Virus record (IMG/VR): IMGVR_UViG_3300037264_000690 | Span: 1-64,000 of that record | Origin: a virus | Length of the DNA stretch: 64,000 nucleotides | Direction: 5' to 3' (one strand) | Shown here: positions 33,830-54,855 of the stretch, piece after piece | Position numbering within the stretch: the first letter of the stretch is position 1 | Layout: each line of letters opens with the position of its first letter | Made by a program: the position numbers and the translations under genes | Notes under the pieces: generated by a model | The model's input: the letters and a program-made list of their open reading frames with translations, nothing else | The model's database searches: none | What the model was told of the DNA's origin: nothing

Positions 33830-35518
33830 GTGCCAAGACAATCAGTTGGAATCCCCGATCATGATGCCTATGGTGATCCACTGGCTGGCCTGACTACTGG
33901 CCAGCTTGCTGATTGGGTTGTGCAGCGTCACATGGCTCAACGCGCTGGCGAACACTATGATGTCCGCTTCGGCACACCTGAAACTGGACTGTATTCTTGG
34001 GCAGCACGTAATGGTCTGCCCATGCCTGGCCAGAAACACCTCGCTGTCCAACAACCCATCCATGCTCATGGGTATAAGGACTTCCAGGGTGTCATCCCTC
34101 GTGGTTACGGTGCTGGCTCGGTCAGTAAGACTCAGTCAGGTCACGTCTTGGTAACCAGGATCGAGCCGAATGCAATCCACTTCACCACTGCGCGAAGTCG
34201 ATTTCCCGAACGATTCGCTCTGATCAAGCCGAAGAGTGGCAAGAACTGGCTATTGCTAAACACTACCAAGACCCAACCAATTCCTTACGACAAAGTTCAC
34301 TACGCGACCATCCCTACCGAGAAAGCTGAGGAGATTATTGATGGTCTTCAACCAGGAAGCTCAGTACAAGCAAAAGTTGATGGTGCAGCAAGTCTCACAA
34401 AACTGTTCAAAGACCACGTCGAGGTGGTTTCCTATCGAACGGCAAAAGGAACTGGATACCCAATTGTCCACACCGAGCGAGTGTTCCACGGACGACCCGG
34501 GGCTCAGATCCCTCGTGAGCTTATTGGAACGGTTTTGCGGGGGGAACTATATGGCGTTGGTCCCGAAGGTCGTGCTATTCCATCACAGCAGCTTGGTGGA
34601 CTCCTCAACGCCGGAGTGGCTAAGTCGATCCAAAGGCAACGGGATCAGCAGATCAAACTGCGTAATCTTGTTTTCGACATTCACCAGCTTGGAGAATCGC
34701 CAACAGCAGCTATGCCCTACGCTCAGCGGCTTGCCAAGTTGAAGGAGATCCTGCCGCTTCTGCCGAGCAGCGAGACGTTTCATGCTCCAGAGGAAGCAAG
34801 GACTCCAGTTGAAGCCCGTGCGCTTTTCGAACGTATACGTGCTGGTCAGCATCCATTGACCAGTGAGGGTCTGGTCGTTCACTCACCTACGGGAGTTCCG
34901 TCCAAGATCAAGTTCATGGAAGACCACGATGTTCATGTTCGTAGCATCTTCCCTGGTGAAGGTAAGTATGAGGGCATAGGTGCTGGTGGCTTCAACTACA
35001 GCCATGAGCCTGAAGGTCCCATCATTGGTCGAGTTGGTACTGGACTGTCCGACGAGATGCGTCGTGACTTGTTGGAGAACCAGGACGACTATGTTGGTCG
35101 TGTCGCCAGGGTACAGGCCCAACAGAAGTTTCCATCTGGTTCGTTACGGGCACCATCGTTCATTTCCTTCCATGAGGACTACCCAGCTCGTCAGGCAGCA
35201 CAGACCGCTGCATCCGAGATGGGGTCGGCACGTCAGCGTATTCGCACCATGCGGCAACCAACGGCTGGCAATCCAGCTGAGCACGTCGGTGGCGCCTTAG
35301 CAGCGTTACGTCAAGCAAAGAAAGAGTCTGATCGCGGTAACTGGCCAGCTAAGCATGATCTGCTACGACAGACCATTCGCTCCGAGCCACACAATTTCAT
35401 AATTGACTCAGAGATGGCTGGCATTACCGGCTTGACACACAAGCCAACCGGGTTCAAAATCCACATTCCAACCCCAACTGTGCCGACGGAGCTGCGAGTT
35501 GCAAAGGGGGCCATATGA
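33830..35518 (+). CDS. LigD-type 3'-phosphoesterase domain fused to ATP-dependent DNA ligase
   Basis: VVQRH.A....HYD.R...SWA; KVDG, RGELY, FDI, EGLV, KIK, OB fold VGTGLSD. Confidence 0.85.
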   Translation: MPRQSVGIPDHDAYGDPLAGLTTGQLADWVVQRHMAQRAGEHYDVRFGTPETGLYSWAARNGLPMPGQKHLAVQQPIHAHGYKDFQGVIPRGYGAGSVSKTQSGHVLVTRIEPNAIHFTTARSRFPERFALIKPKSGKNWLLLNTTKTQPIPYDKVHYATIPTEKAEEIIDGLQPGSSVQAKVDGAASLTKLFKDHVEVVSYRTAKGTGYPIVHTERVFHGRPGAQIPRELIGTVLRGELYGVGPEGRAIPSQQLGGLLNAGVAKSIQRQRDQQIKLRNLVFDIHQLGESPTAAMPYAQRLAKLKEILPLLPSSETFHAPEEARTPVEARALFERIRAGQHPLTSEGLVVHSPTGVPSKIKFMEDHDVHVRSIFPGEGKYEGIGAGGFNYSHEPEGPIIGRVGTGLSDEMRRDLLENQDDYVGRVARVQAQQKFPSGSLRAPSFISFHEDYPARQAAQTAASEMGSARQRIRTMRQPTAGNPAEHVGGALAALRQAKKESDRGNWPAKHDLLRQTIRSEPHNFIIDSEMAGITGLTHKPTGFKIHIPTPTVPTELRVAKGAI

Positions 35519-42870: not shown

Positions 42871-43208
42871 CACAGCAAGAGCTTGAAGCAGATGTTGCAA
42901 TCCAGTTTGAGTATCGCAGTGAGTTCTTTGATCTCTCTAGTGCTGAGCAGAAGCAAAAATACGATTGGGTGATGGATCGTGTTGTCAATGGTATGTTCGT
43001 CCATCACTTCATCGACCGACATGTCAACCATGCAAATGGTAAGGTAACGGTGTATATTGAGTGGAGTCAGCGCTATGCGCAGCTTTCTCCACAAGCACGG
43101 TTGGCTAGGAGTCAATGTCATGTCATTCCCACTAGTTCAAGCGGTTTACAAAGTCCGGGGTGGGATGCTGGGCTTGCTGGGCAGCAACACCCATCCGTTG
43201 GTATCTGA
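42762..43208 (+). CDS. Hypothetical protein
   Basis: AAAGGA RBS, GTG start. Confidence 0.55.
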   Translation: MSLFKFFGEQGDLHGGRLFWSRNLPVPFKGTHAPTLTQQELEADVAIQFEYRSEFFDLSSAEQKQKYDWVMDRVVNGMFVHHFIDRHVNHANGKVTVYIEWSQRYAQLSPQARLARSQCHVIPTSSSGLQSPGWDAGLAGQQHPSVGI

Positions 43209-44058
43209 AAAGACTGCAGCTGCGTCAGATGCACCTCTAGTGCCTACCCGTGGGCTTGAACTAAATGAGGATTGGGGTCAGCATCGTAATAAGTTGCTCA
43301 AGACCTTAGCACTGCTTGGGTTGAGTAGTGCTGCTATTGGCGGTGGTATAACTGGAGGTTTCGGTCTGCATCGCTTGCATCAAATGCGTAATGAGAAGCC
43401 AGAGGCTCTGCCTGGTAATATCCCGCTCACCATGCCGCCTGGTAGGCTACCACCTAGCGATGAGCCGGAGAAGATTGCAGCCTCAGTACCGTTTGGACAC
43501 TGGAAGCAGCTCATTGGTATGACTGCACAACATCCGTCTGACATTCCACTTGGCTGGCTTGCGGCTCCGGCTGTCGGCGTCGGTGGCCTACTTGGCAGTA
43601 GCGCTCTAATGAATCGGATTTTGCATAACAAGATGAAGAGCGTACGTAGCAACGAGCTGGCTCAGTCACAGCAAGAGTTCGACAAGGCAATGTTAGAGCA
43701 GTATGACAGTCCGCAGCTACGTAGTGAGAAGATCAGCTCGGCTCTTGACTACCTATACGATGCAGTCGAGAAGCAAGCAATTAGCTCGATTACACCTGGT
43801 GCGGTGACCTCAACCGACAAGCAACCACTAACAGATGCTAGCAGCTCTGGTAGTGTACTTGGTCCGCTGGCGCTAGCAGCCGCACTAAGCGGTAGTTTCG
43901 GTCTGCGCGCTGGCTATCGTTGGGCGGAAGGACGCAAACCTGAAAATCTACTGCGTGATGTCATGAAGCAGAGAGCGCTTCGCCGTGCACAGGCCATGCC
44001 TGAATCGATTCAGTTCGCAGCACCAAGGCCGGCTGATGAACAGGAACTTGACGAATAA
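43120..44058 (+). CDS. Putative virion protein with repeated K-x-A motifs and hydrophobic helices
   Basis: EKTAA, EKIAA, EKQAI each precede a Gly/Ala-rich segment. Confidence 0.6.
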   Translation: MSFPLVQAVYKVRGGMLGLLGSNTHPLVSEKTAAASDAPLVPTRGLELNEDWGQHRNKLLKTLALLGLSSAAIGGGITGGFGLHRLHQMRNEKPEALPGNIPLTMPPGRLPPSDEPEKIAASVPFGHWKQLIGMTAQHPSDIPLGWLAAPAVGVGGLLGSSALMNRILHNKMKSVRSNELAQSQQEFDKAMLEQYDSPQLRSEKISSALDYLYDAVEKQAISSITPGAVTSTDKQPLTDASSSGSVLGPLALAAALSGSFGLRAGYRWAEGRKPENLLRDVMKQRALRRAQAMPESIQFAAPRPADEQELDE

Positions 44059-47000
44059 TGTTGGAGGGCACGATGCCTAGTATTGTCACCGTGGGGCCAA
44101 CGCATGACTCCGTTGAGAGCAGTGCGACGGCGACCACTACTAAGCTGCCAGCACAGCCGCCGCAGCAACGGTCCATTGTAGCTGGTCCTCCACCAGCCCC
44201 GGTGACGATGCGCTCATTCGGTGACTCCGACGCTACCCGCAAAGCTATCTATGATAACGTGCTCAAAGCAGCACAAGATATTCAGCCGGTAGCCAACAAC
44301 CGTTACAGTCTTGAGCTAAACGAACCGCATTGGTCCAGTGACGAAGGTGTGTCTATCAACGAACGCAAGAGAGCCATCCTTCGCGGTGAGACACTGAACC
44401 GTCGGCTGCGTGGCACCTGGCGGCTCAAGGACGTTCAAGGTAACCTTGTCAGCGAACGTCTTGCTACGGTTGCGCACGTTCCTCGCATGACTAACCAGGG
44501 CACTTTCGTCGTTAACGGTTCCGAGTACACACTTGGCCATCAGATGCGATTGCGACCTGGTGTCTTCACACGTCGTAAGGAAAATGGTGAGCTGGAGAGC
44601 CACATCAACATCATGCCCGGTAAGGGTCTGAGCCATCACTACTTCCTGGAACCAGAGACTGGCATTTTCAAGATCCGTGTTGGCCAAGCTAATATGCCAC
44701 TCGTTTCAGTTATGAAGGCGATGGGTGCCACCGATAGCGAATTGCGTGACGCCTGGGGTGCCGAGCTACATGGTCTTAACGCACAGAAGGACGATCCTCG
44801 CGTTATGGACAAGCTCTATGCTCGACTTATCGGCAAGAAGGGTGATCCTAATGCCAGTCTGGAAGACAAGCGTCAAGCAGTTGGTAAGGCGTTTAGTGAG
44901 ATGGAGCTAGACCCAGAGGTCACAAAGCGGACACTTGGTCAGCCTTATGGTCGCCTCGGTAAAGAAGTTGCCATAGCGACCACCAAGAAGCTGCTTGGTG
45001 TCAGTCGCGGTGAGGCTGACACCGACGATCGTGACGCGCTAGCTTTCCAGCACTTCATGGGACCGGAAGACCTGTTCGCTGAGCGTATTGGCCGCGACAA
45101 GCGGGTACTCAACGAACTGCTCTGGAAGGCGACCACGCACGGCAATCTGGATAAGATGCCGACTGGCGCCTTCACCAGACATATCCACGCCGCGCTGCTG
45201 GACAGTGGGCTGGGGCAGTGCTTTGATGTTGAAACAAAGGTGCTGACCGCGCGTGGTTTCATCGCTTGGCCAGTAGTCACCGAAGACGATCTATTTGCTT
45301 GCTTGATAAACGGCAAGTTGAGCTACCACAAAGCTTACAAGCTGTTCAAGTATGAATACGATGGACAGCTATACTGTCGAACAACAAAACGGCTTGATTA
45401 TTGTGTTACACCTAACCATCGTTTGTGGTGTAAGTCTAAGTTCTACTCTGATTATCAGACAGAGTTAGCTGAACAAGCACACGGCAAGACCAGAATATTC
45501 AACATCGCGCTTCCACCATATGATGGTGTTGATACGGATTTCGTGTTGCCTTCAGTTAAAACAGGTCGGTGGCAGAATGACACTGGTCCGCTAACTACGC
45601 CTGGTGACATCTGGGCTAGTTTTCTTGGTTGGTATATTAGTGAGGGTTGGGTGTCAACCGAGACGCAGCGAAACGGTAACGAGACACGGCGTATCTGTAT
45701 CTCGCAGTGTCCTGTAGCGCATCCGGTGGAGCATGCCGAGATAATTCGTGTGCTGTCGCAACTACCGTGCAAGTGGAATTACAATCATAGCAACAAAACA
45801 TTCTGTATCAACAACAAGCAGTTTGTTGAAGAAGTTGCAAAGTATGGTAGTAATGCTCGGGTTAAGCGTATACCACGATACTGCTTTAGTTGGACTAATC
45901 GACGGTTGGCATTGCTGTTGGATGCCTACATGGCTGGCGACGGCAATGTTTGCAATGGACACCACAAAGCTGAAACTGTTTCTGAACAACTTGCTGAAGA
46001 TTTGTCGGAAGCCTTCAATCGTCTTGGTAATGCAGTTTATATCTCAAAGCGGAAGCTAAGTGAAAAGAATCCTGCGTGGGCCGATAGCTATGTTGTTAGT
46101 GTACTGAAGACTGGCTCTACAACTGCATTTGGCCACACTTGTCACAAGCGTCACTATGTAGGTCCGGTCTACTGTGCTCATGTACCTGGAGAGCGTCTTT
46201 ACATTAGCCGCAATCGACGTAACTCCTGGAGTGCCAATAGTTTAGAAGAGATAAATCCAGCAGATGTGTTCGATCAGCAGACCCGAGTCAGCCGACTTGG
46301 CTATGGTGGCATTCCCAGTATCGACGCTGTTCCCGATGAAGCTCGTTCAGTGCAGCCAAGCCACTTGGGTTACATCGACCTGCTCCGCACCCCGGAGTCG
46401 TTCAAGGTCGGTGTCGACTCGCGTGTGAGCCACGTTGCCAAGAAGGGCAGCGACGGGCGCATCTACACGCCATTCCTGGATCCCAAGTCGGGTCAGATGG
46501 TCTATCGCAGCCCGCAGGACGTGGCTGACTTGACACTGGCCTTCCCCGGCGAGCTGCAAAAAGGCAAGCCGCTGGTCGCCGCCATTGTTGGCGGCAAGAC
46601 CCGGTATGTCCCGCGCGATCAAGTTGACTTGGCCATGCCGCACGCCGAGCACTGGTTTAGCCCGATCAATAACATGGTGCCAATGAAGTCGGCCGTGAAG
46701 GGCCAACGTGCCGCCATGGCCTCCCGCTTCCTCACTCAGGCCCTGCCGATCAAGGATGCTGAGTCCCCACATGTCCGTGGTCAGGTGCCGGGTGCTGTGG
46801 GTCGATCGTTCGAGGAGCACTATGGCAATCAAGTTGGTGCAGTGTTCGGCGAGCAACAGTCTGGTCGAGTCACTAGCGTGTCGCCCGATGAGATCACCGT
46901 CAAGTACGCCGATGGTTCGACCAAGACCCACGAGCTGTACAACAACTTCCCATACAACCGGAAGACTTACATTCACAACGAGTCGCTAGTGCAGAAGGGT

Positions 47001-49565
47001 GACCCAGTAAAGCCTGGGCAATTGCTTGCCAAGTCGAACTACACCGACCAACATGGTCACGTTGCCCTGGGCAAAAACCTACGTGTGGCTTACGTTCCGT
47101 TCCGTGGGCTTAACTATGAGGACGCCTACGTTATCTCCGAGTCAGGTGCCAAGAAGCTCTCCTCTGAGCATATGTACCAGCACGCGATGGAGTGGGATGA
47201 GCGGCATCGCAGGGGCCTCAACAGCTTCATTAGCATCTTCCCGGGCACTTTCCAGAAGCCACAGCTCAGGGGTATGGACACCGATGGTATTGTGAAGCCT
47301 GGTACTGTACTCAAGCCTGGTGATCCGGTTGTCCTTGCCGCTCGCGAACGTGAGTTGTCGCGCAAACAGGTTCACACCTCGCATAAGGGCAGCTTCATTA
47401 ACGACTCACTCACCTGGGATCACCATGCCGAGGGTATGGTCACTGACGTTGAGAAGACCGATAAGGGCGTGACAGTCGCGGTGAAGAGCCTCAACCAGCT
47501 GCAGGTCGGCGACAAGATGTCTGGCCGCTATGGTGATAAGGGTGTCATCGCTGACGTTATACCTGATGATCAGATGCCGCATGATGAAGAGGGAAACCCC
47601 TATGAAGTGCTGGCCAATCCGCTTGGCGTTATTAGCCGCACTAATCCAGCTCAAATGATCGAGGCTACTCTTGGCGCAATTGCTGCTAAGACAGGTAAGT
47701 ATTATGCTATCGATGACTTCTCCAATATTAAGGACTTGACTGAGTATGCCATGAAGGAGCGTGAGAAGCACGGACTTAACAACTTCGGCAAGATCTTCGA
47801 CCCAACCACTAACAAGTCCATCGACAATGTCTTCACTGGCAATCGCTTCTTCATGAAGCTGCACCATACGTCAGAATCGAAGGGACAGGGTCGCGGTCTG
47901 GGTGGTTACACTGCTGAGGGCATGCCGGCCAAGGGCGGCGTCGAGGGTAGTAAGCGGATGGCCCTCATGGATGTCAATGCGATGCTCTCGCACGGTGCTG
48001 TCGAGACGCTGCGTGACGTCAAGTTGATTCGTGGTCAGAAGAACCAGGAATACTGGTCGAACTTCATGCAGGGCAATCGGCCACCGACGCCACGTGTGCC
48101 GATCGTCTACGAGAAGTTCGTCAACTACCTCAAGGCTTCTGGCGTCAACGTCGTCCGTAAGGGCACGCAGACACACCTGATGGAGTTGACTGATAAGAAC
48201 GTCGATGACATGGCTGGCGACCGTGAGCTGCAGAACGTGAAGACGGTCGACTGGAAGACTGGTTTGACCCCCATCAAGGGCGGCCTCTTCGATGAAACGC
48301 TTACCGGCGGTCACAACGGCAACCGCTGGGCCAAGATCACTCTGCACGAGCCGATGCCCAATCCAGTCATGGAGGAGCCGATCCGTCGACTGCTAGGTTT
48401 AACCAAAGAGAAGTTCGAGAAAGTAATTGCTGGTAGTGACCAACTTGGCGGTAAGACTGGACCAGAGGCTATCCAGAGTGCTCTGGCAGGCGTCAACGTG
48501 AAGCAGGCGCTAGCTCAGTGCCAGGCAGATATTAAGTCGGGTCGGAAGACCTTGCGTGATATTGCTGTGCGGAAGCTGCAGTTCCTCAAGTCGGCAGAGA
48601 TGAAGGGCATTCACCCCAAGGATTGGATGATGACCAAAGTCCCGGTCATCCCGCCCATGTTCCGTCCAATCTCGGTCATGCAGCAAAGCGGTGGTCGGAT
48701 CATTAGCGACTCCAACTACCTCTACAAGGAGCTCTTCGACGCCAACCAGGCGCTCAAGGATGTGAAGGGCGTCTCGGAGGATATCGGTGACGAGCGACTT
48801 AACCTGTATAACGCCTATCGTGGCGTCACCGGCCTGGGCGACCCCGTTCATCCTAAGCTTCAGGAGAAGAAGATTAAGGGCTTCCTGCAGCATGTCTTCG
48901 GTACTAGCCCGAAGTTCAGCACAGTGCAGCAGAAGTTGATCGGTACTACGGTCGACCTAGTTGGTCGCGCAGTGGTTGTGCCAAATCCAGACTTACACAT
49001 GGATGAGGTGGGTCTTCCCGAGGCCCGCGCCTGGGAAATCTACACTCCGTTCATTGCTCGTCGGCTAGTCAAGCAGGGCGTGCCCCGTGTGCAGGCCCTG
49101 GAGCACGTCCGTAACAAGCATGACTTGGCCAAGCGGGCAATGCTTGAAGAGATCAACGAGCGTCCAGTTATTGTGACCCGAGCGCCAACTCTGCATCGCT
49201 ACGGACTCATGTCATTCTGGCCACGATTGACAAAGGGTGAGACTCTGCAGATCAGCCCGATTGTGGTTGGTGGCTTCAACATGGACTTTGACGGTGACGC
49301 CTCGAACTATCACGTCCCGGCTTCTGATGAAGCGCGTAATGAAGCAGTGGACAAGCTGATGCCCAGTAAAAATCTATTCAACGTTAGCCGGTTTCAGGCG
49401 CACTACCTTTTAAGGCAGGAATACATAGGAGGAGTCTACAACGCAACTGCAAAAAAGAATGATAAGCCATCGCGAGTTTTTGCTACCAAACAAGACGCCT
49501 TGCGAGCATTCTATAATGGTAGTCTGCAGCCAGCTGATCCGATCCATATTGTAGGTGACAAATGA
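44058..49565 (+). CDS. Multi-subunit RNA polymerase: beta fused to the N-terminal/catalytic half of beta-prime; intein-containing
   Basis: PRMT..GTFVVNG, GDKMSGRYGDKG, NPLGVISR, MKLHH; VPVIPP.FRP, RAPTLHR, NMDFDGD. Confidence 0.95.
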   Translation: MLEGTMPSIVTVGPTHDSVESSATATTTKLPAQPPQQRSIVAGPPPAPVTMRSFGDSDATRKAIYDNVLKAAQDIQPVANNRYSLELNEPHWSSDEGVSINERKRAILRGETLNRRLRGTWRLKDVQGNLVSERLATVAHVPRMTNQGTFVVNGSEYTLGHQMRLRPGVFTRRKENGELESHINIMPGKGLSHHYFLEPETGIFKIRVGQANMPLVSVMKAMGATDSELRDAWGAELHGLNAQKDDPRVMDKLYARLIGKKGDPNASLEDKRQAVGKAFSEMELDPEVTKRTLGQPYGRLGKEVAIATTKKLLGVSRGEADTDDRDALAFQHFMGPEDLFAERIGRDKRVLNELLWKATTHGNLDKMPTGAFTRHIHAALLDSGLGQCFDVETKVLTARGFIAWPVVTEDDLFACLINGKLSYHKAYKLFKYEYDGQLYCRTTKRLDYCVTPNHRLWCKSKFYSDYQTELAEQAHGKTRIFNIALPPYDGVDTDFVLPSVKTGRWQNDTGPLTTPGDIWASFLGWYISEGWVSTETQRNGNETRRICISQCPVAHPVEHAEIIRVLSQLPCKWNYNHSNKTFCINNKQFVEEVAKYGSNARVKRIPRYCFSWTNRRLALLLDAYMAGDGNVCNGHHKAETVSEQLAEDLSEAFNRLGNAVYISKRKLSEKNPAWADSYVVSVLKTGSTTAFGHTCHKRHYVGPVYCAHVPGERLYISRNRRNSWSANSLEEINPADVFDQQTRVSRLGYGGIPSIDAVPDEARSVQPSHLGYIDLLRTPESFKVGVDSRVSHVAKKGSDGRIYTPFLDPKSGQMVYRSPQDVADLTLAFPGELQKGKPLVAAIVGGKTRYVPRDQVDLAMPHAEHWFSPINNMVPMKSAVKGQRAAMASRFLTQALPIKDAESPHVRGQVPGAVGRSFEEHYGNQVGAVFGEQQSGRVTSVSPDEITVKYADGSTKTHELYNNFPYNRKTYIHNESLVQKGDPVKPGQLLAKSNYTDQHGHVALGKNLRVAYVPFRGLNYEDAYVISESGAKKLSSEHMYQHAMEWDERHRRGLNSFISIFPGTFQKPQLRGMDTDGIVKPGTVLKPGDPVVLAARERELSRKQVHTSHKGSFINDSLTWDHHAEGMVTDVEKTDKGVTVAVKSLNQLQVGDKMSGRYGDKGVIADVIPDDQMPHDEEGNPYEVLANPLGVISRTNPAQMIEATLGAIAAKTGKYYAIDDFSNIKDLTEYAMKEREKHGLNNFGKIFDPTTNKSIDNVFTGNRFFMKLHHTSESKGQGRGLGGYTAEGMPAKGGVEGSKRMALMDVNAMLSHGAVETLRDVKLIRGQKNQEYWSNFMQGNRPPTPRVPIVYEKFVNYLKASGVNVVRKGTQTHLMELTDKNVDDMAGDRELQNVKTVDWKTGLTPIKGGLFDETLTGGHNGNRWAKITLHEPMPNPVMEEPIRRLLGLTKEKFEKVIAGSDQLGGKTGPEAIQSALAGVNVKQALAQCQADIKSGRKTLRDIAVRKLQFLKSAEMKGIHPKDWMMTKVPVIPPMFRPISVMQQSGGRIISDSNYLYKELFDANQALKDVKGVSEDIGDERLNLYNAYRGVTGLGDPVHPKLQEKKIKGFLQHVFGTSPKFSTVQQKLIGTTVDLVGRAVVVPNPDLHMDEVGLPEARAWEIYTPFIARRLVKQGVPRVQALEHVRNKHDLAKRAMLEEINERPVIVTRAPTLHRYGLMSFWPRLTKGETLQISPIVVGGFNMDFDGDASNYHVPASDEARNEAVDKLMPSKNLFNVSRFQAHYLLRQEYIGGVYNATAKKNDKPSRVFATKQDALRAFYNGSLQPADPIHIVGDK
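45219..46238 (+). mobile_element. 340-aa intein with LAGLIDADG-like endonuclease
   Basis: Q|CFDVET start, VTPNH block B, FLGWYISEG and AYMAGDG, VYC block F, SAN|S end; more AT-rich than the flanks. Confidence 0.9.
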
Positions 49566-50020
49566 CTGACCATCGTTGGAACTGGAAAGGCGGCAAGAAA
49601 GCTGGGCTTGCCAGAAAGAAAGCTGCTGGTATCTGTGTAGATTGTACAAACGAGACCAATGGCTGTGTGAAGTGCGATGCTTGCCGGCAGCGAGAAAAAG
49701 CTGGTCACAAGAAGAGGCATTCTAAACTAAAGAATGAAGTCTTCGCTGCCTATGGTGGTTACCACTGCAACTGTCCCGGTTGTGGTGAAACACGACCAAA
49801 CTTCTTGCACATCGACCATGTCGACAATAACGGCGCCGAGCATCGCCGGCAGATGGGCGATCCAACTGGTGCCAACTTCTATTCATGGTTGAAGCAGCAT
49901 GGCTTCCCATTAGGTTTTCAAGTTCTGTGCGCAAACTGCAACTGGGCCAAGGGTCGATATGGTAAATGTCCTCACGTCGATGAGGTCGAGAAGATTGCTA
50001 AGATTCCGTTACACTACTAA
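49562..50020 (+). CDS. HNH-family homing endonuclease-like protein
   Basis: YGG..C...CGE...LHIDHVDN.G, QVLCANCN.AKG. Confidence 0.82.
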   Translation: MTDHRWNWKGGKKAGLARKKAAGICVDCTNETNGCVKCDACRQREKAGHKKRHSKLKNEVFAAYGGYHCNCPGCGETRPNFLHIDHVDNNGAEHRRQMGDPTGANFYSWLKQHGFPLGFQVLCANCNWAKGRYGKCPHVDEVEKIAKIPLHY

Positions 50021-50056
50021 TGGGTGAACAATGGGTAGACTTGGCAACACACAGAA

Positions 50057-50572
50057 ATGAGGACTGCGATGGGACTCAACCAACATCTGGTAGAACTTGC
50101 TCTGGCGAAACTCGCTAACGATCCTGCTCCATCTCAGGCACTGAATCTCAGTATGACGCCTGGTTTGCCGGGAGCTCCAGGAATGAGCGGGCCGAAGGGT
50201 CCGAGAGGCCCATTCTCGTTGGCCGGGCGTGGAGTTGATGCGCTTGGCGGAATGGCCATGAAACATCCGATGCTATCGATTAGTACGCCACTGGCTGCAT
50301 ACGGTGTGAAGAAGCTATACGACAAATACAACGAGCCGAGCGTCGACAAGCAAGCAAATTTGCCACCAGCTGCAACGCCTCCTGCGACCAATGCTGCACC
50401 AGTGGCCCCAGCACCGGCCGCTCAGTTTGGCAGTGTGGAGAATGCCCCAGTGCAACAGACGGAACAACCACAGATGCAGGTAACGACCAGCCAGGGTGCC
50501 GCCAACGTGCCCACTCCTGGTCAAGGCGCGGCCATGAAAGCTCCAGGACTCGTCAAGCCGGCCGGCAAATGA
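50057..50572 (+). CDS. Pro/Ala-rich putative virion protein
   Basis: AKLAN, DKQAN motifs. Confidence 0.55.
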   Translation: MRTAMGLNQHLVELALAKLANDPAPSQALNLSMTPGLPGAPGMSGPKGPRGPFSLAGRGVDALGGMAMKHPMLSISTPLAAYGVKKLYDKYNEPSVDKQANLPPAATPPATNAAPVAPAPAAQFGSVENAPVQQTEQPQMQVTTSQGAANVPTPGQGAAMKAPGLVKPAGK

Positions 50573-50620
50573 TAGAATCAACGGGTGTACTCCCTGAAGC
50601 CACAAAGCAAGGAAGTCAAA

Positions 50621-51649
50621 ATGAATGGACTTAACCCAAACCTTCTAGCTGCTGCAGTCACCAGCTTGCGAGAGAAGTATGGCAGCACGAAGGCGGCGTT
50701 CGTGCCTTCTGACGCTGCTGCTGGCGGTGGCGCCCCGCCTCCTGGTGATCCGGCTGCCGGCGGTGGTGCTCCGCCTCCACCTCCAGGTGATCCAAGCGCT
50801 GGTGGTGCTCCGCCGCCTGATCCAAGCATGGGCATGCCACCAGACGCTGGTGGTGGTGGCGCAATGCCTCCACCTCCTCCTGATCCAAGCATGGGCGGGG
50901 GCGGTGGTGCTGGCATGGCTGACCCTGCTTCCATCGCTGGACAGGTTGCCATGGGTGTCCAGCAGGGCATGGCGGCCACTGGCCTTCAGGGCAACAAAGG
51001 TGTCGGCCCCAACGGCAAGCCTGCCGTCAAGCCCGATATCAACACCATCGCCACCGACGTATTCCAGCTGAAGAAGATGCTCTTTGCCATTATGCGTCAC
51101 GCGAACATTGAGCTACCTCCAGACGTACTTGACGGTCCTAACCGCGATCCACAGACCGGTGCCCCGGCTGAGAGCCCGACTGGTGGCTCAGACGTTAGCC
51201 CTGGTGCCTCGATGCAGCAGAGCGCTATCAAGCCAATTGAGGCAATGCAGGGTGCCTTCCCCGGCGGCGGTGGAGGCGGTGGCGGTGATATGGGTGGTAT
51301 GGGCGGCGGCGCTCCGATGGGTGGAATGGGCGGTGGCATGGGCAAGCGATCGAGTGACCTTTTCACCAAGACTGTTGGTCGTGAGATCACACAGGCCATC
51401 ACCGGCGATAGCGTGCTATCGAAGGCAGCGGCCGTTGCCCTCATGTTCCGTCGTCGTAACGAAACCGGCATGGACAAGGCAGGTATCGTGTCTAGCAATC
51501 CAATGACTGATTTTAGTATCGGTAAGGATGATGGCACGATTGACAAGACGATTGAAGGTATGCCAATCTCCAATTCTGCCCGTGAGAAGGCACATCGTCT
51601 TCGGAAAGTCATCCACGGTTTTACTTCACAGCAGCGTGTCCTTAGTTGA
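50621..51649 (+). CDS. Gly/Pro-rich putative virion protein
   Basis: TKAAF, then GGAPPP.DP repeats; follows TGATAGAAT (50570). Confidence 0.65.
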   Translation: MNGLNPNLLAAAVTSLREKYGSTKAAFVPSDAAAGGGAPPPGDPAAGGGAPPPPPGDPSAGGAPPPDPSMGMPPDAGGGGAMPPPPPDPSMGGGGGAGMADPASIAGQVAMGVQQGMAATGLQGNKGVGPNGKPAVKPDINTIATDVFQLKKMLFAIMRHANIELPPDVLDGPNRDPQTGAPAESPTGGSDVSPGASMQQSAIKPIEAMQGAFPGGGGGGGGDMGGMGGGAPMGGMGGGMGKRSSDLFTKTVGREITQAITGDSVLSKAAAVALMFRRRNETGMDKAGIVSSNPMTDFSIGKDDGTIDKTIEGMPISNSAREKAHRLRKVIHGFTSQQRVLS

Positions 51650-51657
51650 GAGACATA

Positions 51658-51909
51658 ATGATCCTTCAGTTGCATGACAAACTCCAGAAGCCGCTGGTCA
51701 TCAAGGCCACGCGGCTTCTGGCTACTTATGATGATGGCACTCCATTCGCGCTAATTGTGGAGGTCGTCCCTGGTCACGTTCGCGTTTTCCGTGCTGGTGA
51801 CCCAGACTTTAACGACCGACTCAGACAAGCGGCTATTGACCGTTCAGTCATCGTCGATAAGCTCGAACCAGCCAATCCCACGGCCCATCCCAGTCGTCTA
51901 ATTTACTAG
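51658..51909 (+). CDS. Small hypothetical protein
   Basis: ORF coupled to the upstream gene. Confidence 0.55.
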   Translation: MILQLHDKLQKPLVIKATRLLATYDDGTPFALIVEVVPGHVRVFRAGDPDFNDRLRQAAIDRSVIVDKLEPANPTAHPSRLIY

Positions 51910-51926
51910 GCCAAACGTGTCATTAT
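51899..51926 (+). promoter_or_regulatory. Class-A promoter-like motif (variant)
   Basis: TAATT-N13-GTGTCATTAT. Confidence 0.6.
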
Positions 51927-51928
51927 CT

Positions 51929-51967
51929 AATAGCCAAGCGGTATACCTGCTTGGCTGTTTCTTTTTC
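51929..51967 (+). terminator. Terminator-like hairpin directly after the promoter motif
   Basis: AATAGCCAAGCGG-TATA-CCTGCTTGGCTGTT + TCTTTTTC. Confidence 0.65.
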
Positions 51968-51999
51968 TAGCTCAAGGGTTGAAGACACAGGAGGTTAAC

Positions 52000-52374
52000 A
52001 TGAACCTTCGCACCACACCGTTTCTAGAACTCATCAACGCGTTCATCGAGCTGGAGGGATTATCATGGGTAGAGCAGTCAATTAGAGAGGAAAGAGAGGA
52101 TCGTAGTTATACGTTGCTAGGAGCACTGTCGTGGCTAAGCAGAACCAGGCATAACAGCGGCAACCATGTCAGGCAACTTCAAGAACAAGGGGATTCAAGG
52201 GACTGGCCAGTCATCTTCTCTGAGCTGTTGCTGTATCAGGTGTATGACATCTACGGTTGTGGTGGGTGGAATCGGTATTACGTAGATGCTCATGGCGAGA
52301 TCAGGTTCAGTCACTATCACTCCATAAAAGATGATCAGATCAAAGCGGCTAAGCTGGGGTTCGATGTAAGGTAG
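52000..52374 (+). CDS. Hypothetical protein
   Basis: AGGAGG RBS; GCGGWNRY. Confidence 0.6.
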   Translation: MNLRTTPFLELINAFIELEGLSWVEQSIREEREDRSYTLLGALSWLSRTRHNSGNHVRQLQEQGDSRDWPVIFSELLLYQVYDIYGCGGWNRYYVDAHGEIRFSHYHSIKDDQIKAAKLGFDVR

Positions 52375-52426
52375 AATCAAGGGTGGGCACGGTCAACCGT
52401 GCCCACCTAGTTATTCTTTTTTAGGT

Positions 52427-54322
52427 ATGGAAGCCATGCTCCACACAACCGCAGGTCAGCTAGCTGTTAACGAACTCCTCCCAGAGGAGATGCGTGACCA
52501 TGCTCGCATCCTCGACAAGAAGGGCATCTCGCAACTCTTACAAGAGGTTGCCGAGAAGTACCCTGATAAGTACCGCGACATTGCTCATGGCTTATCCAAG
52601 GTCGGATATCATTCTGCTTATCACACTGGCGGACACAGCTTCGACTTGACGCACATGCGCACTGCTCGTGCGGCACTAACGGCCCGTCAGGAGATCGAGA
52701 CCAAGATTCAGCAGATCCACGCCAACCCGCATTTGTCACCCGAGATGAAGGACAATCAGGTCATCGAGCTGGCGTTGAGCCATCATCAACCATTGACCGA
52801 GGCCATTCTGCACGAAAGCAAGAAGGAGGGCAATCCCCTGGCCGAGCAAGTCACTGCTATCGGTCGTGGCAACCCGGTCAGTCTCAAGTCGCTGCGTGGT
52901 AGTGACCTCATGTATGTCGACCACAAGGATCGGCCCATTCCAATCCCGATCCTTCGCAGCTACTCTGAGGGCCTGGAGCCGGTCGAATATTACGCTGGCA
53001 CCTTCGGTGCTCGGAAGGGTGTCATGGACACCAAGTTCGCCACCCAGGATGCTGGTGCCCTGTCAAAGCAGTTCAACCAACTCGCCCATCGACTGGTCGT
53101 CACCAAGCACGATCATGACGACGCGAACCATCACGCTCATCAGGGCATGCCTGTCGAGTTGGATGATCCTGATAACGAGGGTGCTCTGCTGGCTTATCCA
53201 GCAGGCGGCTATCCTCGCAATACCGTCCTGCGGCCCAAGATCCTCTCGCACTTGAAGAGTCTGGGTCTGAAGAACATAGTCGTTCGCAGCCCTATCACTA
53301 CTGGTCCAATGGACGGTGGCCTGTACGCCAGAGATGTTGGCTATCGCGAGCGTGGTGGTATTGCGCCACTTGGAGATAACATTGGCATCGCCGCCGCCCA
53401 GGCGCTTTCCGAACCATTGGCACAAGCTCAGCTCTCGTCGAAGCACTCCGGCGGTATTGTCGGTGCGGCTAAGGGTGTCAGTGGCTTCAAGTTAATCAAC
53501 CAGCTCACCCAGGTGCCTAAGACCTTCAAGGGTGGTGCTGCTCATGCCCAACTTGATGGCCGTGTTAGTGACATTGAAGTAGCGCCACAAGGCGGTAACT
53601 ACATCGTCATCGGCGGCCAGCGACACTACGTTGGCACTGGTTACGACCCCAAGGTTAAGCGTGGGGATGAAGTCGAGGCTGGCGACGTGATCTCTGATGG
53701 CACTCCTAACCCAGCTGAAATTGTCAGGCATAAGGGCATCGGTGAAGGCCGTCGCTATTTCGTCGACTCCTTCCGCAATGCCTATAAGGAGTCTGGTCTG
53801 CCGCATCACCGTCGGAACATTGAAGTCATGGCTCGTGGCTTGATTGACCACGTTCGGCTAACTGAGGAGCATGGTCAGTATGTGCCAGGCGACATTGTGT
53901 CCTATAGCCGACTTGAGCATTCATATAAGCCGCGTGAGGGCAGCCTTCAGGGTGATCCGAAGCGAGCCATGAATCATTATCTGGAGAAACCAGTCCTGCA
54001 CTACTCGATCGGCACTAAGATTCGACCCAGCACTGTAAACACATTGCAGCAGTACGGCATCAAGAACGTCGTGGCTCATCCAGAGCCACCACCGTTTGAG
54101 CCGGAAATGATTCGTGGCATGGAGAACCTGAGTCATGATCCGGACTGGATGGTTCGCTTCCTTGGGTCATATCAGGAGAAGAATCTACTGCGCGGTGTTC
54201 ACCGTGGAGACATCAGTGAGGAGAAAGGCACCAGCTATGTGCCAGCACTGTCACGTGCAGTTGACTTTGGCAAGGTTGGGCCTGTGCAACCGTGGAAGCC
54301 GAGTTCGATCCTCAAGTCTTGA
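52427..54322 (+). CDS. RNA polymerase beta-prime C-terminal half (bridge helix, trigger loop)
   Basis: TTAGQ, GARKG..DT...T..AG, GIAAAQALSEP..Q..L..KH.GG, RNIEV. Confidence 0.92.
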   Translation: MEAMLHTTAGQLAVNELLPEEMRDHARILDKKGISQLLQEVAEKYPDKYRDIAHGLSKVGYHSAYHTGGHSFDLTHMRTARAALTARQEIETKIQQIHANPHLSPEMKDNQVIELALSHHQPLTEAILHESKKEGNPLAEQVTAIGRGNPVSLKSLRGSDLMYVDHKDRPIPIPILRSYSEGLEPVEYYAGTFGARKGVMDTKFATQDAGALSKQFNQLAHRLVVTKHDHDDANHHAHQGMPVELDDPDNEGALLAYPAGGYPRNTVLRPKILSHLKSLGLKNIVVRSPITTGPMDGGLYARDVGYRERGGIAPLGDNIGIAAAQALSEPLAQAQLSSKHSGGIVGAAKGVSGFKLINQLTQVPKTFKGGAAHAQLDGRVSDIEVAPQGGNYIVIGGQRHYVGTGYDPKVKRGDEVEAGDVISDGTPNPAEIVRHKGIGEGRRYFVDSFRNAYKESGLPHHRRNIEVMARGLIDHVRLTEEHGQYVPGDIVSYSRLEHSYKPREGSLQGDPKRAMNHYLEKPVLHYSIGTKIRPSTVNTLQQYGIKNVVAHPEPPPFEPEMIRGMENLSHDPDWMVRFLGSYQEKNLLRGVHRGDISEEKGTSYVPALSRAVDFGKVGPVQPWKPSSILKS

Positions 54323-54420
54323 CAGACGTATATCAATGCGGCATAATACACCTAGTTCTTGGTTTCTGGTTTGGCCTGGCGGTGGGTAACGGAGTGCGGG
54401 CACCCGCCGCCAGGCACCCC

Positions 54421-54804: not shown

Positions 54805-54827
54805 CTCATGGCGATCTTTCGGTAACA

Positions 54828-54855
54828 AGGCGACCGAAAGGTCGCTTTTTTTTTT
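54828..54855 (+). terminator. Intrinsic terminator
   Basis: GGCGACC-GAAA-GGTCGCT + T run. Confidence 0.85.

What the first reader, a model, noticed from the sequence alone, without database searches (positions are those of the whole stretch)
44058..54322. RNA polymerase with a shifted subunit boundary
Seen: beta runs without a stop into beta-prime through NMDFDGD, so both catalytic barrels lie on one chain. The beta-prime N-terminal Zn ribbon is missing (GGLFDE..GG directly precedes WAKITL). The bridge-helix/trigger-loop half is a separate gene 2.9 kb downstream, beyond five unrelated genes. No alpha or sigma gene is recognisable in this window. This differs from cellular rpoB/rpoC and from the phiKZ-type four-way split.
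Basis: partly seen in the sequence, partly recalled or inferred. Interest (0 to 1): 0.7.

Follow-up and report, generated by a model that had tools for sequence, protein, structure and literature searches.

The report
Fused-and-split phage RNA polymerase with intein
A large uncultured phage encodes its own bacterial-type RNA polymerase as two oddly cut chains (all of beta joined to the front of beta-prime and interrupted by a self-splicing intein, plus the back of beta-prime as a separate gene); hundreds of related phages share this layout, but I found no paper that describes it.

Summary
ORF 44058-49565 (1835 aa) runs from beta straight into beta-prime, past NMDFDGD. The beta-prime zinc ribbon is replaced by a six-residue loop. 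ORF 52427-54322 (631 aa) carries the bridge helix, trigger loop and region H.

The fusion is not an assembly error:
- All 84 related loci I mapped keep the end of beta joined to beta-prime-N.
- All 150 closest beta-prime-C relatives start at the same residue.
- Salmonella phage Arash gp206/gp216 have the same layout and are abundant in virion preparations.

Three distant relatives are complete single-chain beta-beta-prime enzymes and two of them branch first, so fusion probably came before the split.

Two of the five "unrelated" intervening genes are conserved partners in 74 of 76 loci. A third looks like an HNH homing endonuclease.

No alpha or omega was detected. A sigma-like gene lies outside the window, about 33 kb downstream of the beta-prime-C gene. 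The mature enzyme has one cysteine in 2126 residues.

No paper I could search describes this layout. This scan has already met it in at least 33 other genomes. Verdict: a new variant of a known kind.

The parts
44058..49565 (+). Gene for the fused chain beta::beta'N with an intein. The precursor is 1835 aa and the mature chain 1495 aa. A database gene call starts at M51 instead (1785 aa).
   Evidence: ORF and translation. Pfam Rpb2_3, Rpb2_6, Rpb1_1 and Rpb1_2 on one chain. PDB beta and beta' alignments. It is 83% identical over the C-extein (76% over the N-terminal part) to the intein-less 1498-aa orthologue L004:3714-8210 and about 31% identical to Arash gp206.
44058..45218 (+). N-extein: the N-terminal part of beta (residues 1-387). 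It ends ...LDSGLGQ, which is the E. coli beta Q513 equivalent.
   Evidence: PDB beta alignment to residues 73-256. Continuous with residue 728 in L004 and in Arash.
45219..46238 (+). Intein of 340 aa (C388...N727; +1 residue is S728) with a LAGLIDADG homing-endonuclease core.
   Evidence: Absent, with a seamless GQ|S junction, from L004 (83% identical flank) and from Arash gp206. Starts with Cys, has a block-B T-x-x-H (TPNH), and ends Ala-Asn before Ser. Pfam LAGLIDADG_3 23.0 bits (cut-off 22.5) when scanned alone. Weak matches to intein-bearing archaeal PolII, RFC, RNAP A'' and DnaB models and to PI-PkoII. Holds 13 of the gene's 14 Cys. Inteins at the same site in relatives end GN|S or SN|S.
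46239..48224 (+). C-extein, beta part (residues 728 to about 1389). Includes the Rif-cluster-I/fork region and the beta catalytic motif GDKMSGRYGDKGV (nt 47508-47546).
   Evidence: PDB beta chains align to 726-1394, E=1.7e-66. Pfam Rpb2_6 E=2.9e-49.
48225..49562 (+). The beta' N-terminal part joined directly to beta (residues about 1390-1835). It contains the zinc-ribbon-less loop (nt 48279-48344), the clamp coiled-coil, and the Mg-binding NMDFDGD (nt 49278-49298). It ends about 88 residues after the motif.
   Evidence: Taq beta' 25-51 aligns weakly to residues 1390-1417 (not significant on its own), and beta' chains align to 1441-1833. Motif positions. The chain end matches residue 1475 of the single-chain relative L084, which continues without a break.
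49562..50020 (+). HNH homing-endonuclease-like ORF (152 aa, 11 Cys). Its start overlaps the stop of the fused gene.
   Evidence: Motifs H-I-D-H...N...C-A-N-C-N read in the translation. No significant Pfam or PHROG hit. Homologues at this position only in L016 and L038.
50057..50572 (+). ORF of 171 aa with no Cys and unknown function.
   Evidence: ORF. Homologue in the spacer only in the closest relative, L004. No Pfam or PHROG hit.
50585..51649 (+). Conserved spacer gene 'family A' (354 aa here, about 240 aa typically). It is Pro/Ala/Gly-rich and low in complexity, with one conserved helical core, and has no Cys.
   Evidence: One homologue directly after the fused gene in 74 related loci. Alignment A2. 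No Pfam or PHROG hit.
51646..51909 (+). Conserved spacer gene 'family B' (87 aa). In most relatives it lies directly upstream of beta'C.
   Evidence: Homologues in 74 related loci. Alignment A1. AF2 pLDDT 87.6, five strands plus one helix. No Foldseek PDB match below E=0.6, and the fold is not omega-like.
51979..52374 (+). ORF of 131 aa seen only in this phage. Terminator-like hairpins at 51929-51959 and 52381-52408 bracket it.
   Evidence: ORF. No homologue in the spacers of 76 loci. Hairpins.
52427..54322 (+). Gene for beta'C (631 aa, no Cys). It starts just before the TTAGQ motif (E. coli beta' about residue 571). It carries the bridge helix (about nt 52979-53083), the trigger loop (about nt 53378-53512) and region H.
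   Evidence: Pfam Rpb1_5. PDB beta' E=2e-34 over residues 5-499, with the bridge-helix and trigger-loop motifs aligned. AF2 pLDDT 75.8 and Foldseek E about 1e-24 to bacterial beta'. All 150 closest representatives begin at the same position.

Best explanation
These genes encode the catalytic core of the phage's own bacterial-type multisubunit RNA polymerase, made as two polypeptides.

Chain 1 is all of beta joined, without a linker domain, to beta-prime as far as about 88 residues past the Mg-binding NMDFDGD loop. Both double-psi barrels and the clamp are therefore covalently tied. Chain 1 is made as an 1835-aa precursor. A 340-aa LAGLIDADG intein sits at the E. coli beta Q513/F514 position and must splice itself out to give a 1495-aa protein.

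Chain 2 (631 aa) supplies the bridge helix, the trigger loop and region H.

Shown here:
- the domain content of both chains;
- the exact intein boundaries;
- the clean split site;
- the conservation of this layout across a large clade of phages of about 180-230 kb;
- no detectable alpha, omega or beta-prime zinc sites.

Inferred:
(a) The layout arose from a complete single-chain beta-beta-prime enzyme that was later cut after the active-site barrel.
(b) The covalent beta-beta-prime tie stands in for the alpha-dimer assembly platform.
(c) The enzyme works with the phage's sigma-70-family-like protein.
(d) By homology with Arash, the enzyme, the sigma and a helicase are packaged in the virion and delivered with the DNA for early transcription. 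The near-total lack of cysteine fits this.
(e) The enzyme is probably insensitive to rifampicin.
For: Identity and layout:
- Pfam, PDB-sequence and fold matches.

Intein:
- Seamless absence in L004 and Arash, Cys1, TPNH, terminal Asn, +1 Ser, and two LAGLIDADG motifs.
- Inteins at the same site in relatives.

Not an artefact, and the norm for the clade:
- All 120 best fused homologues carry Rpb2_6 plus Rpb1_2 on one chain, on contigs up to about 230 kb.
- 84 mapped loci keep the end of beta fused to beta'N.
- 150 of 150 nearest beta'C representatives have no N-terminal extension. 1056 representative clusters score E<=1e-30.
- No unfused beta'N was found on long contigs.
- Arash gp206 (1525 aa) and gp216 (606 aa) have the same layout.

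One enzyme set:
- One Rpb1_2 locus in each of three complete genomes.

No alpha or omega:
-.

Sigma:
- A 266-aa homologue of Arash gp10, with sigma region 2-4 alignments below the curated cut-offs.

Split site:
- In the single-chain relative L084, residue 1475 aligns with the last residue of chain 1 and residue 1477 with residue 8 of chain 2.

Order of events:
- The single-chain forms L084 and L088 branch first in a tree rooted on bacteria.
- A single origin of the split is not rejected (p-AU 0.069).

Virion association:
- Arash gp206, gp216, sigma gp10 and helicase gp217 were all detected in purified virions, and gp206 had the most spectra (PMC10585845).

Cysteine:
- 1 Cys in 2126 mature residues, against 1.5% genome-wide.
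- 90 of 100 intein-less homologues have none.
- The sigma-like protein and the helicase homologue are also Cys-free.

Rifampicin:
- The E. coli D516 and H526 equivalents read E and Q. This is my residue-by-residue reading of the alignment to a Firmicute beta chain, transferred to E. coli numbering's coordinates.

From established knowledge, not tested here:
- Engineered and natural (Helicobacter, Wolbachia) rpoB-rpoC fusions are functional.
- E. coli beta' split in this inter-domain region assembles into active enzyme.
Against: - The record is only 46% complete. A second RNAP set, alpha-like proteins or further sigma factors could lie in the missing half.
- Absence of alpha and omega rests on Pfam-level sensitivity. 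A structural analogue without sequence similarity is not excluded.
- Virion packaging is known only from one mass-spectrometry study of a relative that is 30% identical. Its authors note that abundant infection-phase proteins might co-purify.
- The sigma-like protein scores below all curated cut-offs.
- The intein has Ala instead of the usual penultimate His, and splicing was not tested.
- The tree is a quick LG+G4 search with long branches and a distant root. The AU test is borderline.
- Arash beta'C has 4 Cys, so cysteine loss is not absolute across the clade.
Confidence: 0.85

Rival explanations
1. The fusion is an assembly or frameshift artefact, and beta and beta-prime are really separate genes as in bacteria.
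For: The window comes from a metagenomic contig, and metagenomic assemblies do contain chimeras. One relative (L015) shows two overlapping ORFs where its kin have one.
Against: - The same in-frame junction occurs in 84 independent loci and in 120 of 120 listed protein clusters.
- It also occurs in the cultured phages Arash and D181.
- Arash gp206 was covered 100% by peptides as one protein.
- The junction sequence aligns residue by residue with the end of beta and the start of beta'.
Confidence: 0.01
2. The enzyme is real but is not carried in the virion. Host RNA polymerase, perhaps redirected by the phage sigma-like protein, transcribes the early genes. The phage RNAP is made later for middle and late genes.
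For: - The Arash authors themselves allow that abundant enzymes may co-purify with particles.
- A near-consensus sigma-70-type promoter (TTGACA-17-CATAAT) sits at 54319-54347.
- A phage sigma could serve the host core enzyme, as in many large phages (Sokolova review).
Against: - gp206 had the highest spectral count of all Arash virion proteins. gp216, sigma and the helicase were also found.
- The RNAP genes lie inside the head-gene block here and in Arash.
- The RNAP, the sigma-like protein and the helicase homologue are all Cys-free in a genome with 1.5% Cys. This suggests a shared constraint, such as passage out of the capsid.
- Sigma-70-like promoter matches are fewer than chance in this region (4 found, 9.8 expected).
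Confidence: 0.3
3. A different evolutionary order. Beta-prime was split first, as in cyanobacteria and phiKZ-type phages, and beta was fused to beta-prime-N afterwards. The single-chain forms would then be secondary re-fusions.
For: - Splits of beta' after the barrel are known elsewhere.
- L092, one of the three single-chain forms, sits on a very long branch in an unresolved position.
- The root lies on a long branch to bacteria.
Against: - L084 and L088 branch before all split forms with full support.
- This order needs at least four events, against two or three for fusion first.
- The split site lies well upstream of the cyanobacterial one; I estimate about 60 residues by offsetting the alignment. 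Common descent of the split from cyanobacteria is therefore unlikely.
Confidence: 0.2
4. The intein-bearing gene in this particular phage is non-functional because the intein lacks the penultimate histidine and cannot splice.
For: The intein ends Ala-Asn, not His-Asn. Its endonuclease domain scores only just above the Pfam cut-off.
Against: - The 1835-codon frame is fully open, and the exteins are 76-83% identical to the intein-less orthologue.
- Cys1, TPNH, the terminal Asn and the +1 Ser are all intact.
- Inteins at this same site in relatives also end GN or SN, so the family works without the His.
- This is the only RNAP found in the record.
Confidence: 0.05

Closest known systems
RNA polymerase of Salmonella phage Arash (gp206 1525 aa + gp216 606 aa, sigma gp10; OQ632216.1; PMC10585845) and of Vibrio phages D181/D148/D69
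   Same: - Same two-chain layout: beta::beta'N, then beta'C a few genes downstream.
- Same zinc-ribbon-less loop.
- Same placement next to head genes.
- A sigma homologue and a helicase homologue are present.
- A single RNAP set.
- D181 also has two chains once its group I intron is removed.
   Different: - Only about 27-31% identical.
- Arash has no intein.
- Different cargo between the two genes: nine ORFs, several on the other strand.
- The paper labels the proteins simply beta and beta' and does not note the fusion or the split.
- The D181 genes are annotated as hypothetical.
Natural rpoB-rpoC fusions of Helicobacter and Wolbachia (own knowledge)
   Same: The C-terminus of beta is joined in frame to the N-terminus of beta', giving a chain that carries both catalytic barrels.
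   Different: - In those bacteria the whole of beta' stays attached (about 2900 aa), alpha and omega are present, and the zinc sites are kept.
- Here beta' is cut after the active-site barrel. Alpha, omega and the zinc sites were not detected.
- The complete single-chain relatives (L084, L088, L092; 2038-2082 aa) are the nearer analogue.
Split beta' of cyanobacteria and plastids (rpoC1/rpoC2) and of phiKZ/AR9-type jumbo-phage RNAPs (PMC7598289, PMC7824862)
   Same: Beta' is cut between the Mg-binding barrel and the bridge helix. The phiKZ-type enzymes also lack alpha and omega.
   Different: - The cut here is at about E. coli beta' 570/571. By my offset of the alignment, the cyanobacterial gamma subunit runs about 60 residues further.
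- In those systems beta is not fused to beta'N.
- phiKZ-type phages split beta as well, have two enzyme sets and no sigma homologue.
- Sequence similarity to phiKZ-type subunits was too low to detect by tblastn.
mReC, the multisubunit-RNAP-encoding Caudovirales (Weinheimer & Aylward 2020, PMC7481178)
   Same: Uncultured tailed phages with beta and beta' that align readily to bacterial homologues and branch outside cellular clades.
   Different: - Their Supplementary Data 2 lists separate beta (about 1000-1560 aa) and beta' (about 900-1390 aa) proteins, mostly neighbouring genes.
- Their filter required a beta' hit of at least 800 aa, which would exclude the 600-aa beta'C of this clade.
- The paper does not mention a beta-beta' fusion in these phages.
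Single-chain virion RNA polymerase of crAss-like phages (own knowledge; cited in PMC7481178)
   Same: A phage-encoded two-barrel RNAP with both barrels on one polypeptide, delivered from the virion.
   Different: The crAss enzyme has no HMM-detectable similarity to beta or beta'. This one scores E=2.9e-49 to Rpb2_6 and aligns to bacterial subunits along its whole length.

Membership tests
Bacterial-type multisubunit RNA polymerase catalytic core (beta + beta') | Beta double-psi barrel with the conserved Lys-bearing motif (GDKxxGRHGxKG) | tested here: met
   GDKMSGRYGDKGV at residue 1151. Pfam Rpb2_6 E=2.9e-49. PDB beta E=1.7e-66.
Bacterial-type multisubunit RNA polymerase catalytic core (beta + beta') | Beta' barrel with the three-Asp Mg-binding loop (NADFDGD) | tested here: met
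   NMDFDGD at residues 1741-1747. Pfam Rpb1_2 E=6.4e-24. Clade variants are GADFDGD, NADFDGD and GMDFDGD.
Bacterial-type multisubunit RNA polymerase catalytic core (beta + beta') | Bridge helix and trigger loop | tested here: met
   GARKGVMDTKFATQDAG aligns to the bridge helix, and AAQALSEP...SSKHSGG to the trigger loop. The AF2 model has a long helix at 185-219 and trigger helices at 318-340 and 348-362, and matches beta' chains.
Bacterial-type multisubunit RNA polymerase catalytic core (beta + beta') | Alpha dimer assembly platform and omega | tested here: not met
   No hit to PF01000, PF01193 or PF01192 at E<=1 in the 94-kb record or in three complete genomes of the clade. The controls hit 14 of 14 cellular genomes. 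Sequence-level test only.
Bacterial-type multisubunit RNA polymerase catalytic core (beta + beta') | The two beta' zinc sites (N-terminal ribbon; Cys cluster in the C-terminal half) | tested here: not met
   The ribbon is replaced by a six-residue loop. Beta'C has no Cys, and the mature chain 1 has one.
Bacterial-type multisubunit RNA polymerase catalytic core (beta + beta') | A sigma-70-family initiation factor | tested here: inconclusive
   A 266-aa ORF at G000:C1:87548-88348 is homologous to Arash sigma gp10 (E=1.9e-11). It aligns to SigB/F/G and RpoD models over regions 2-4, but below every curated cut-off. Binding was not tested.
Arash-like fused-and-split phage RNAP (family defined here from sequence) | End of beta joined to beta'N on one chain; beta'C a separate chain starting at the T-T-x-G-Q motif | tested here: met
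Arash-like fused-and-split phage RNAP (family defined here from sequence) | Conserved spacer genes A (Pro/Ala-rich) and B (about 80 aa) between the two RNAP genes | tested here: met
   Window ORFs 50585-51649 and 51646-51909 belong to families found in 74 of 76 loci. No homologue of them was detected in the Arash or D181 spacers.
Arash-like fused-and-split phage RNAP (family defined here from sequence) | A single RNAP set per genome | tested here: inconclusive
   One set in the 94-kb record, but the record is 46% complete. One set in each of three complete relatives.
phiKZ/AR9-type jumbo-phage RNAPs | Beta split into 2-3 and beta' into 2 separate chains; two paralogous sets (virion and non-virion); no sigma homologue | tested here: not met
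   Beta is whole and fused to beta'N. There is one set. A sigma-like gene is present. Family features taken from PMC7598289 and PMC7824862.
Class 1 intein with LAGLIDADG homing endonuclease | Precise in-frame insert in a conserved host site, absent from close orthologues | tested here: met
   The junction GQ|S is continuous in L004 and Arash. The site equals E. coli beta Q513/F514.
Class 1 intein with LAGLIDADG homing endonuclease | Cys/Ser at position 1, block-B T-x-x-H, C-terminal Asn, nucleophile at +1 | tested here: met
   C388, TPNH about 65 residues in, N727 and S728.
Class 1 intein with LAGLIDADG homing endonuclease | Penultimate His | tested here: not met
   The intein ends Ala-Asn. 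Inteins at the same site in relatives end Gly-Asn or Ser-Asn. Natural inteins without this His are known (own knowledge).
Class 1 intein with LAGLIDADG homing endonuclease | Two LAGLIDADG motifs | tested here: met
   LGWYISEG and LDAYMAGDG. Pfam PF14528 23.0 bits against a cut-off of 22.5. Alignment to PI-PkoII across both motifs.

The most novel reading that the evidence does not exclude
This clade's polymerase may be a self-sufficient enzyme of two chains plus sigma that needs no alpha, omega, zinc or cysteine. On this reading it is packed inside the capsid, ejected through the tail with the DNA in an unfolded state, and refolds in the host.

If so, the cysteine-free proteins of the genome would together mark the phage's ejected 'start-up kit'. 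These are the RNAP chains, the sigma-like protein, the helicase homologue, spacer gene A, the 171-aa spacer ORF (50057-50572) and several others.

The covalent beta-beta-prime tie would be what lets the core reassemble without an assembly platform.
Probability: 0.35. Interest if true: 0.8.

Novelty: new variant of a known kind. Interest (0 to 1): 0.6.

Why it matters
Multisubunit RNA polymerases are among the most conserved machines in biology, and their subunit boundaries are textbook constants.

Here a very large, almost unstudied clade of phages of about 180-230 kb builds a readily alignable bacterial-type enzyme differently:
- the two catalytic barrels are tied covalently;
- the bridge-helix and trigger-loop module is supplied separately;
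- no alpha, omega or zinc site was detected;
- a sigma-family partner is present.

More than 1000 representative protein clusters score E<=1e-30 to the beta-prime-C chain.

This gives a natural test of what the alpha platform and the zinc sites are for. It also offers a compact two-gene polymerase (2126 aa) for biochemistry. A cultured entry point exists in Salmonella phage Arash, where the proteins are already seen in virion preparations.

The same genes are hot spots for inteins (at least 8 sites), group I introns and free-standing homing endonucleases. That makes the family a rich set for studying mobile-element targeting of essential genes.

Tried and rejected
- **Megablast of the 10-kb region against 50,697 phage records:** no match.
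- **Pfam and PHROG scans of the five intervening ORFs and four neighbours:** nothing significant.
- **Spacer genes A and B as cryptic alpha and omega:** rejected. A is mostly low-complexity Pro/Ala/Gly. B folds confidently as a five-stranded sheet plus one helix, has no PDB match below E=0.6 and is unlike helical omega.
- **C-terminal extensions of beta'C relatives as a separate gene here:** the extensions of eight sampled relatives were not found in the 94-kb record.
- **Is this clade the published mReC?** No. Their tables list separate beta and beta' proteins.
- **Exact comparison with the cyanobacterial split site:** a phmmer search with the first 120 residues of beta'C did not reach the gamma chains. 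The offset of about 60 residues is therefore estimated.
- **The look-up of encoding contigs:** I used the search for related loci instead.
- **Literature:** eight full-text searches found no description of the fused-and-split layout.
- **Whole-complex model:** not attempted. The fold tool takes one chain of at most 1200 residues.

Full report
**Where the window lies**

The window is the first 64 kb of a 94,413-bp IMG/VR virus record that CheckV rates 46% complete. Nearly all long ORFs are on the + strand.

**The observation**

ORF 44058-49565 is open for 1835 codons.
- Pfam finds Rpb2_3 and Rpb2_6 (E=2.9e-49), and then Rpb1_1 and Rpb1_2 (E=6.4e-24), on the same chain.
- Solved bacterial beta chains align to residues 73-256 and 726-1394 (best E=1.7e-66). 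Beta-prime chains align to 1441-1833.
- A search with the last 456 residues gives a weak alignment, not significant on its own, of the very N-terminus of Thermus aquaticus beta-prime (residues 25-51) to residues 1390-1417. On that reading beta-prime starts within a few residues of the end of beta.
- After GGLFDE (1408) come ten residues and then WAKITL (1424). Bacterial beta-prime has a four-cysteine zinc ribbon at this place.
- NMDFDGD is at 1741-1747, and the chain ends 88 residues later.

ORF 52427-54322 (631 aa) is the rest of beta-prime.
- Pfam finds Rpb1_5.
- It aligns to Streptomyces beta-prime 658-1171 with the bridge-helix and trigger-loop motifs in register.
- An AlphaFold2 model (pLDDT 75.8) matches bacterial beta-prime chains over 620-690 columns, at Foldseek E about 1e-24.

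Salmonella phage Arash gp206 (1525 aa) aligns to residues 57-387 and 723-1831, but not to the stretch between. The intein-less orthologue L004:3714-8210 (83% identical over the C-extein, 76% over the N-terminal part) reads ...LDSGLGQ|SLEEINP... without a break. This fixes the insert as C388-N727, with S728 as the +1 residue.

The insert has the marks of an intein:
- it begins with Cys;
- it has a T-P-N-H block about 65 residues in;
- it carries two LAGLIDADG motifs (Pfam PF14528, 23.0 bits; alignment to PI-PkoII; weak hits to intein-bearing archaeal replication and transcription proteins);
- it ends Ala-Asn.

It lies between the equivalents of E. coli beta Q513 and F514, in rifampicin cluster I. 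Relatives carry inteins at the same site that end Gly-Asn or Ser-Asn, so the missing penultimate His is a family trait. The mature chain is 1495 aa.

**Is the fusion real, and how common is it?**

- A search with residues 728-1835 returned 120 listed clusters at 56% identity or more. All carry Rpb2_6 plus Rpb1_2 on one chain of about 1440-1560 aa, or longer with inteins. They sit on contigs up to about 230 kb.
- A profile-free scan of 1.84 billion representatives with beta-prime-C gave 1056 proteins at E<=1e-30. None of the 150 best has an N-terminal extension, so all begin at the same split point.
- A search for shorter relatives found no free beta-prime-N on long contigs. It found only forms in which a further cut lies inside beta, while the end of beta stays joined to beta-prime-N.
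- I fetched 80 IMG/VR loci and mapped both chains onto stop-to-stop frames. The dominant pattern, in about 65 loci, is one ORF of 1458-1500 aa, a spacer of about 0.97 kb, and then a beta-prime-C ORF of 625-670 aa.

Variants seen among the mapped loci:
- inteins;
- a third cut at extein position about 955 (L073, L075-L078);
- an in-frame stop (L069, L070, L091);
- a probable frameshift (L015);
- in Vibrio phage D181, a group I intron with a homing-endonuclease gene (Rfam RF00028, 100.7 bits).

Arash gp206 was seen as one protein with 100% peptide coverage. An assembly error is excluded.

**Origin**

Three distant loci (L084, L088, L092) encode one ORF of 2038-2082 aa that covers both chains. 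In L084, residue 1475 aligns with the last residue of chain 1, and residue 1477 aligns with residue 8 of chain 2. The cut is clean and no sequence is lost. It corresponds to E. coli beta-prime about 570/571, just before TTVGRAIL. Offsetting the alignment, I estimate that the cyanobacterial gamma subunit extends about 60 residues further, so the site is not the cyanobacterial one.

I built a quick maximum-likelihood tree from concatenated beta plus beta-prime and rooted it on E. coli and S. aureus.
- All these phage enzymes form one clade.
- L084 and L088 branch first.
- Then comes an unresolved trio of L092, Arash plus D181, and the rest.
- A single origin of the split is not rejected (p-AU 0.069).

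Fusion first, then a split, needs the fewest events. The tree has long branches, so this stays an inference.

**The 'five unrelated genes'**

In 74 of 76 loci the spacer holds two conserved genes.
- Family A (here 50585-51649) is Pro/Ala/Gly-rich with one conserved helix.
- Family B (here 51646-51909) is an 80-aa protein. It folds confidently into five strands and a helix, and has no PDB match.
- Neither looks like alpha or omega.

The other three ORFs are accessory.
- 49562-50020 has HNH endonuclease motifs. It is found only in two other loci.
- 50057-50572 is shared only with the closest relative.
- 51979-52374 is unique. Terminator-like hairpins flank it on both sides.

**Partners**

- No alpha or omega family hit appears in this record or in three complete genomes of the clade, while all 14 control genomes hit.
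- Each complete genome has a single beta-prime active-site locus.
- A 266-aa ORF at 87548-88348 of the record, outside the window, is homologous to Arash sigma gp10. It aligns to sigma-70-family models across regions 2-4, but below the curated cut-offs.

**Cysteine**

- The mature chain 1 has one Cys and chain 2 has none. The intein has 13.
- Long ORFs of the record average 1.5% Cys, so about 32 would be expected in the two chains.
- Ninety of 100 intein-less homologues have none.
- The sigma-like protein, the homologue of Arash helicase gp217, spacer gene A and the 171-aa spacer ORF (50057-50572) are also Cys-free.
- In Arash, gp206, gp216, sigma gp10 and helicase gp217 were all detected in purified virions, and gp206 had the most spectra.

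I infer that the polymerase and its partners are packaged and delivered with the DNA. I cannot show it. Arash beta-prime-C keeps four Cys.

**Literature**

- The Arash paper calls the proteins beta and beta-prime and says nothing about their boundaries.
- Two reviews of jumbo-phage RNAPs and a 2021 comparative study describe only the phiKZ/AR9 four-to-five-piece enzymes.
- The mReC paper lists separate beta and beta-prime proteins.
- Eight full-text searches found no description of this layout.

Earlier reports of this scan reached the same reading on at least 33 other genomes. My tree, cysteine count and spacer analysis were done before I read them, and they agree.

**Verdict**

The finding is real. 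It is a new variant of a known kind of enzyme. It is the norm for a large uncultured clade, it has a cultured and testable relative, and I found no description of it in the literature I could search.

Noticed in passing
window 31948-33459, 33932-35518, 43075-44058, 50057-50572, 50621-51649; G000:C1 66261, 83173, 87548, 92739: A discrete set of long ORFs has no cysteine at all, in a genome that averages 1.5% Cys. The set includes the homologue of Arash virion helicase gp217 and the sigma-like protein. It may mark proteins that are packaged and ejected.
   Followed up: partly
window 49562-50020: A free-standing HNH homing-endonuclease-like gene (HIDH...N...CANCN, 11 Cys). It overlaps the stop codon of the fused RNAP gene and is present at this spot in only two of 76 related loci.
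   Followed up: partly
L084:7595-13813, L088:7610-13855, L092:7574-13687: Complete single-chain beta-beta' RNA polymerases of 2038-2082 aa in distant relatives. The peptide runs unbroken across the point where this phage's enzyme is cut.
   Followed up: partly
P0008, P0013, P0019, P0023, P0026, P0039, P0062, P0113 and others: The fused RNAP gene family is an intein hot spot, with at least eight insertion sites (extein positions about 387, 635, 815, 855, 922, 958, 1282-1306 and 1408). One protein of 3089 aa carries four inserts.
   Followed up: partly
L002:9362-9642 (Vibrio phage D181): A group I intron (RF00028, 100.7 bits) followed by a homing-endonuclease gene interrupts the beta part. The record annotates the two exons as separate hypothetical proteins.
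   Followed up: yes
L070:2318-8875, L091:5384-11941, L069: The fused RNAP frame is open for 2186 codons except for one in-frame stop at extein position about 835. This could be read-through, suppression or a recent mutation.
   Followed up: no
P0129, P0134, P0145, P0175 and about 100 other beta'C relatives: 105 of the 150 nearest beta'C representatives carry a variable, low-complexity C-terminal extension of 100-1060 aa that this phage lacks. The extensions have almost no Pfam hits and are only partly alike.
   Followed up: partly
L073, L075-L078: A subclade has an extra cut inside beta at extein position about 955. This gives three chains, with the last roughly 100 residues of beta still fused to beta'N.
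   Followed up: partly
window 51929-51959, 52381-52408, 54319-54347, 54827-54848: Strong terminator-like hairpins bracket the unique ORF 51979-52374, and another follows the beta'C region. A near-consensus sigma-70-type promoter (TTGACA-17-CATAAT) overlaps the beta'C stop codon.
   Followed up: no
window 44058-44207: A database gene call for this ORF starts at M51 (1785 aa). The first 50 codons are conserved at the protein level in L004, so the ATG at 44058, which overlaps the upstream stop, is the likelier start.
   Followed up: partly
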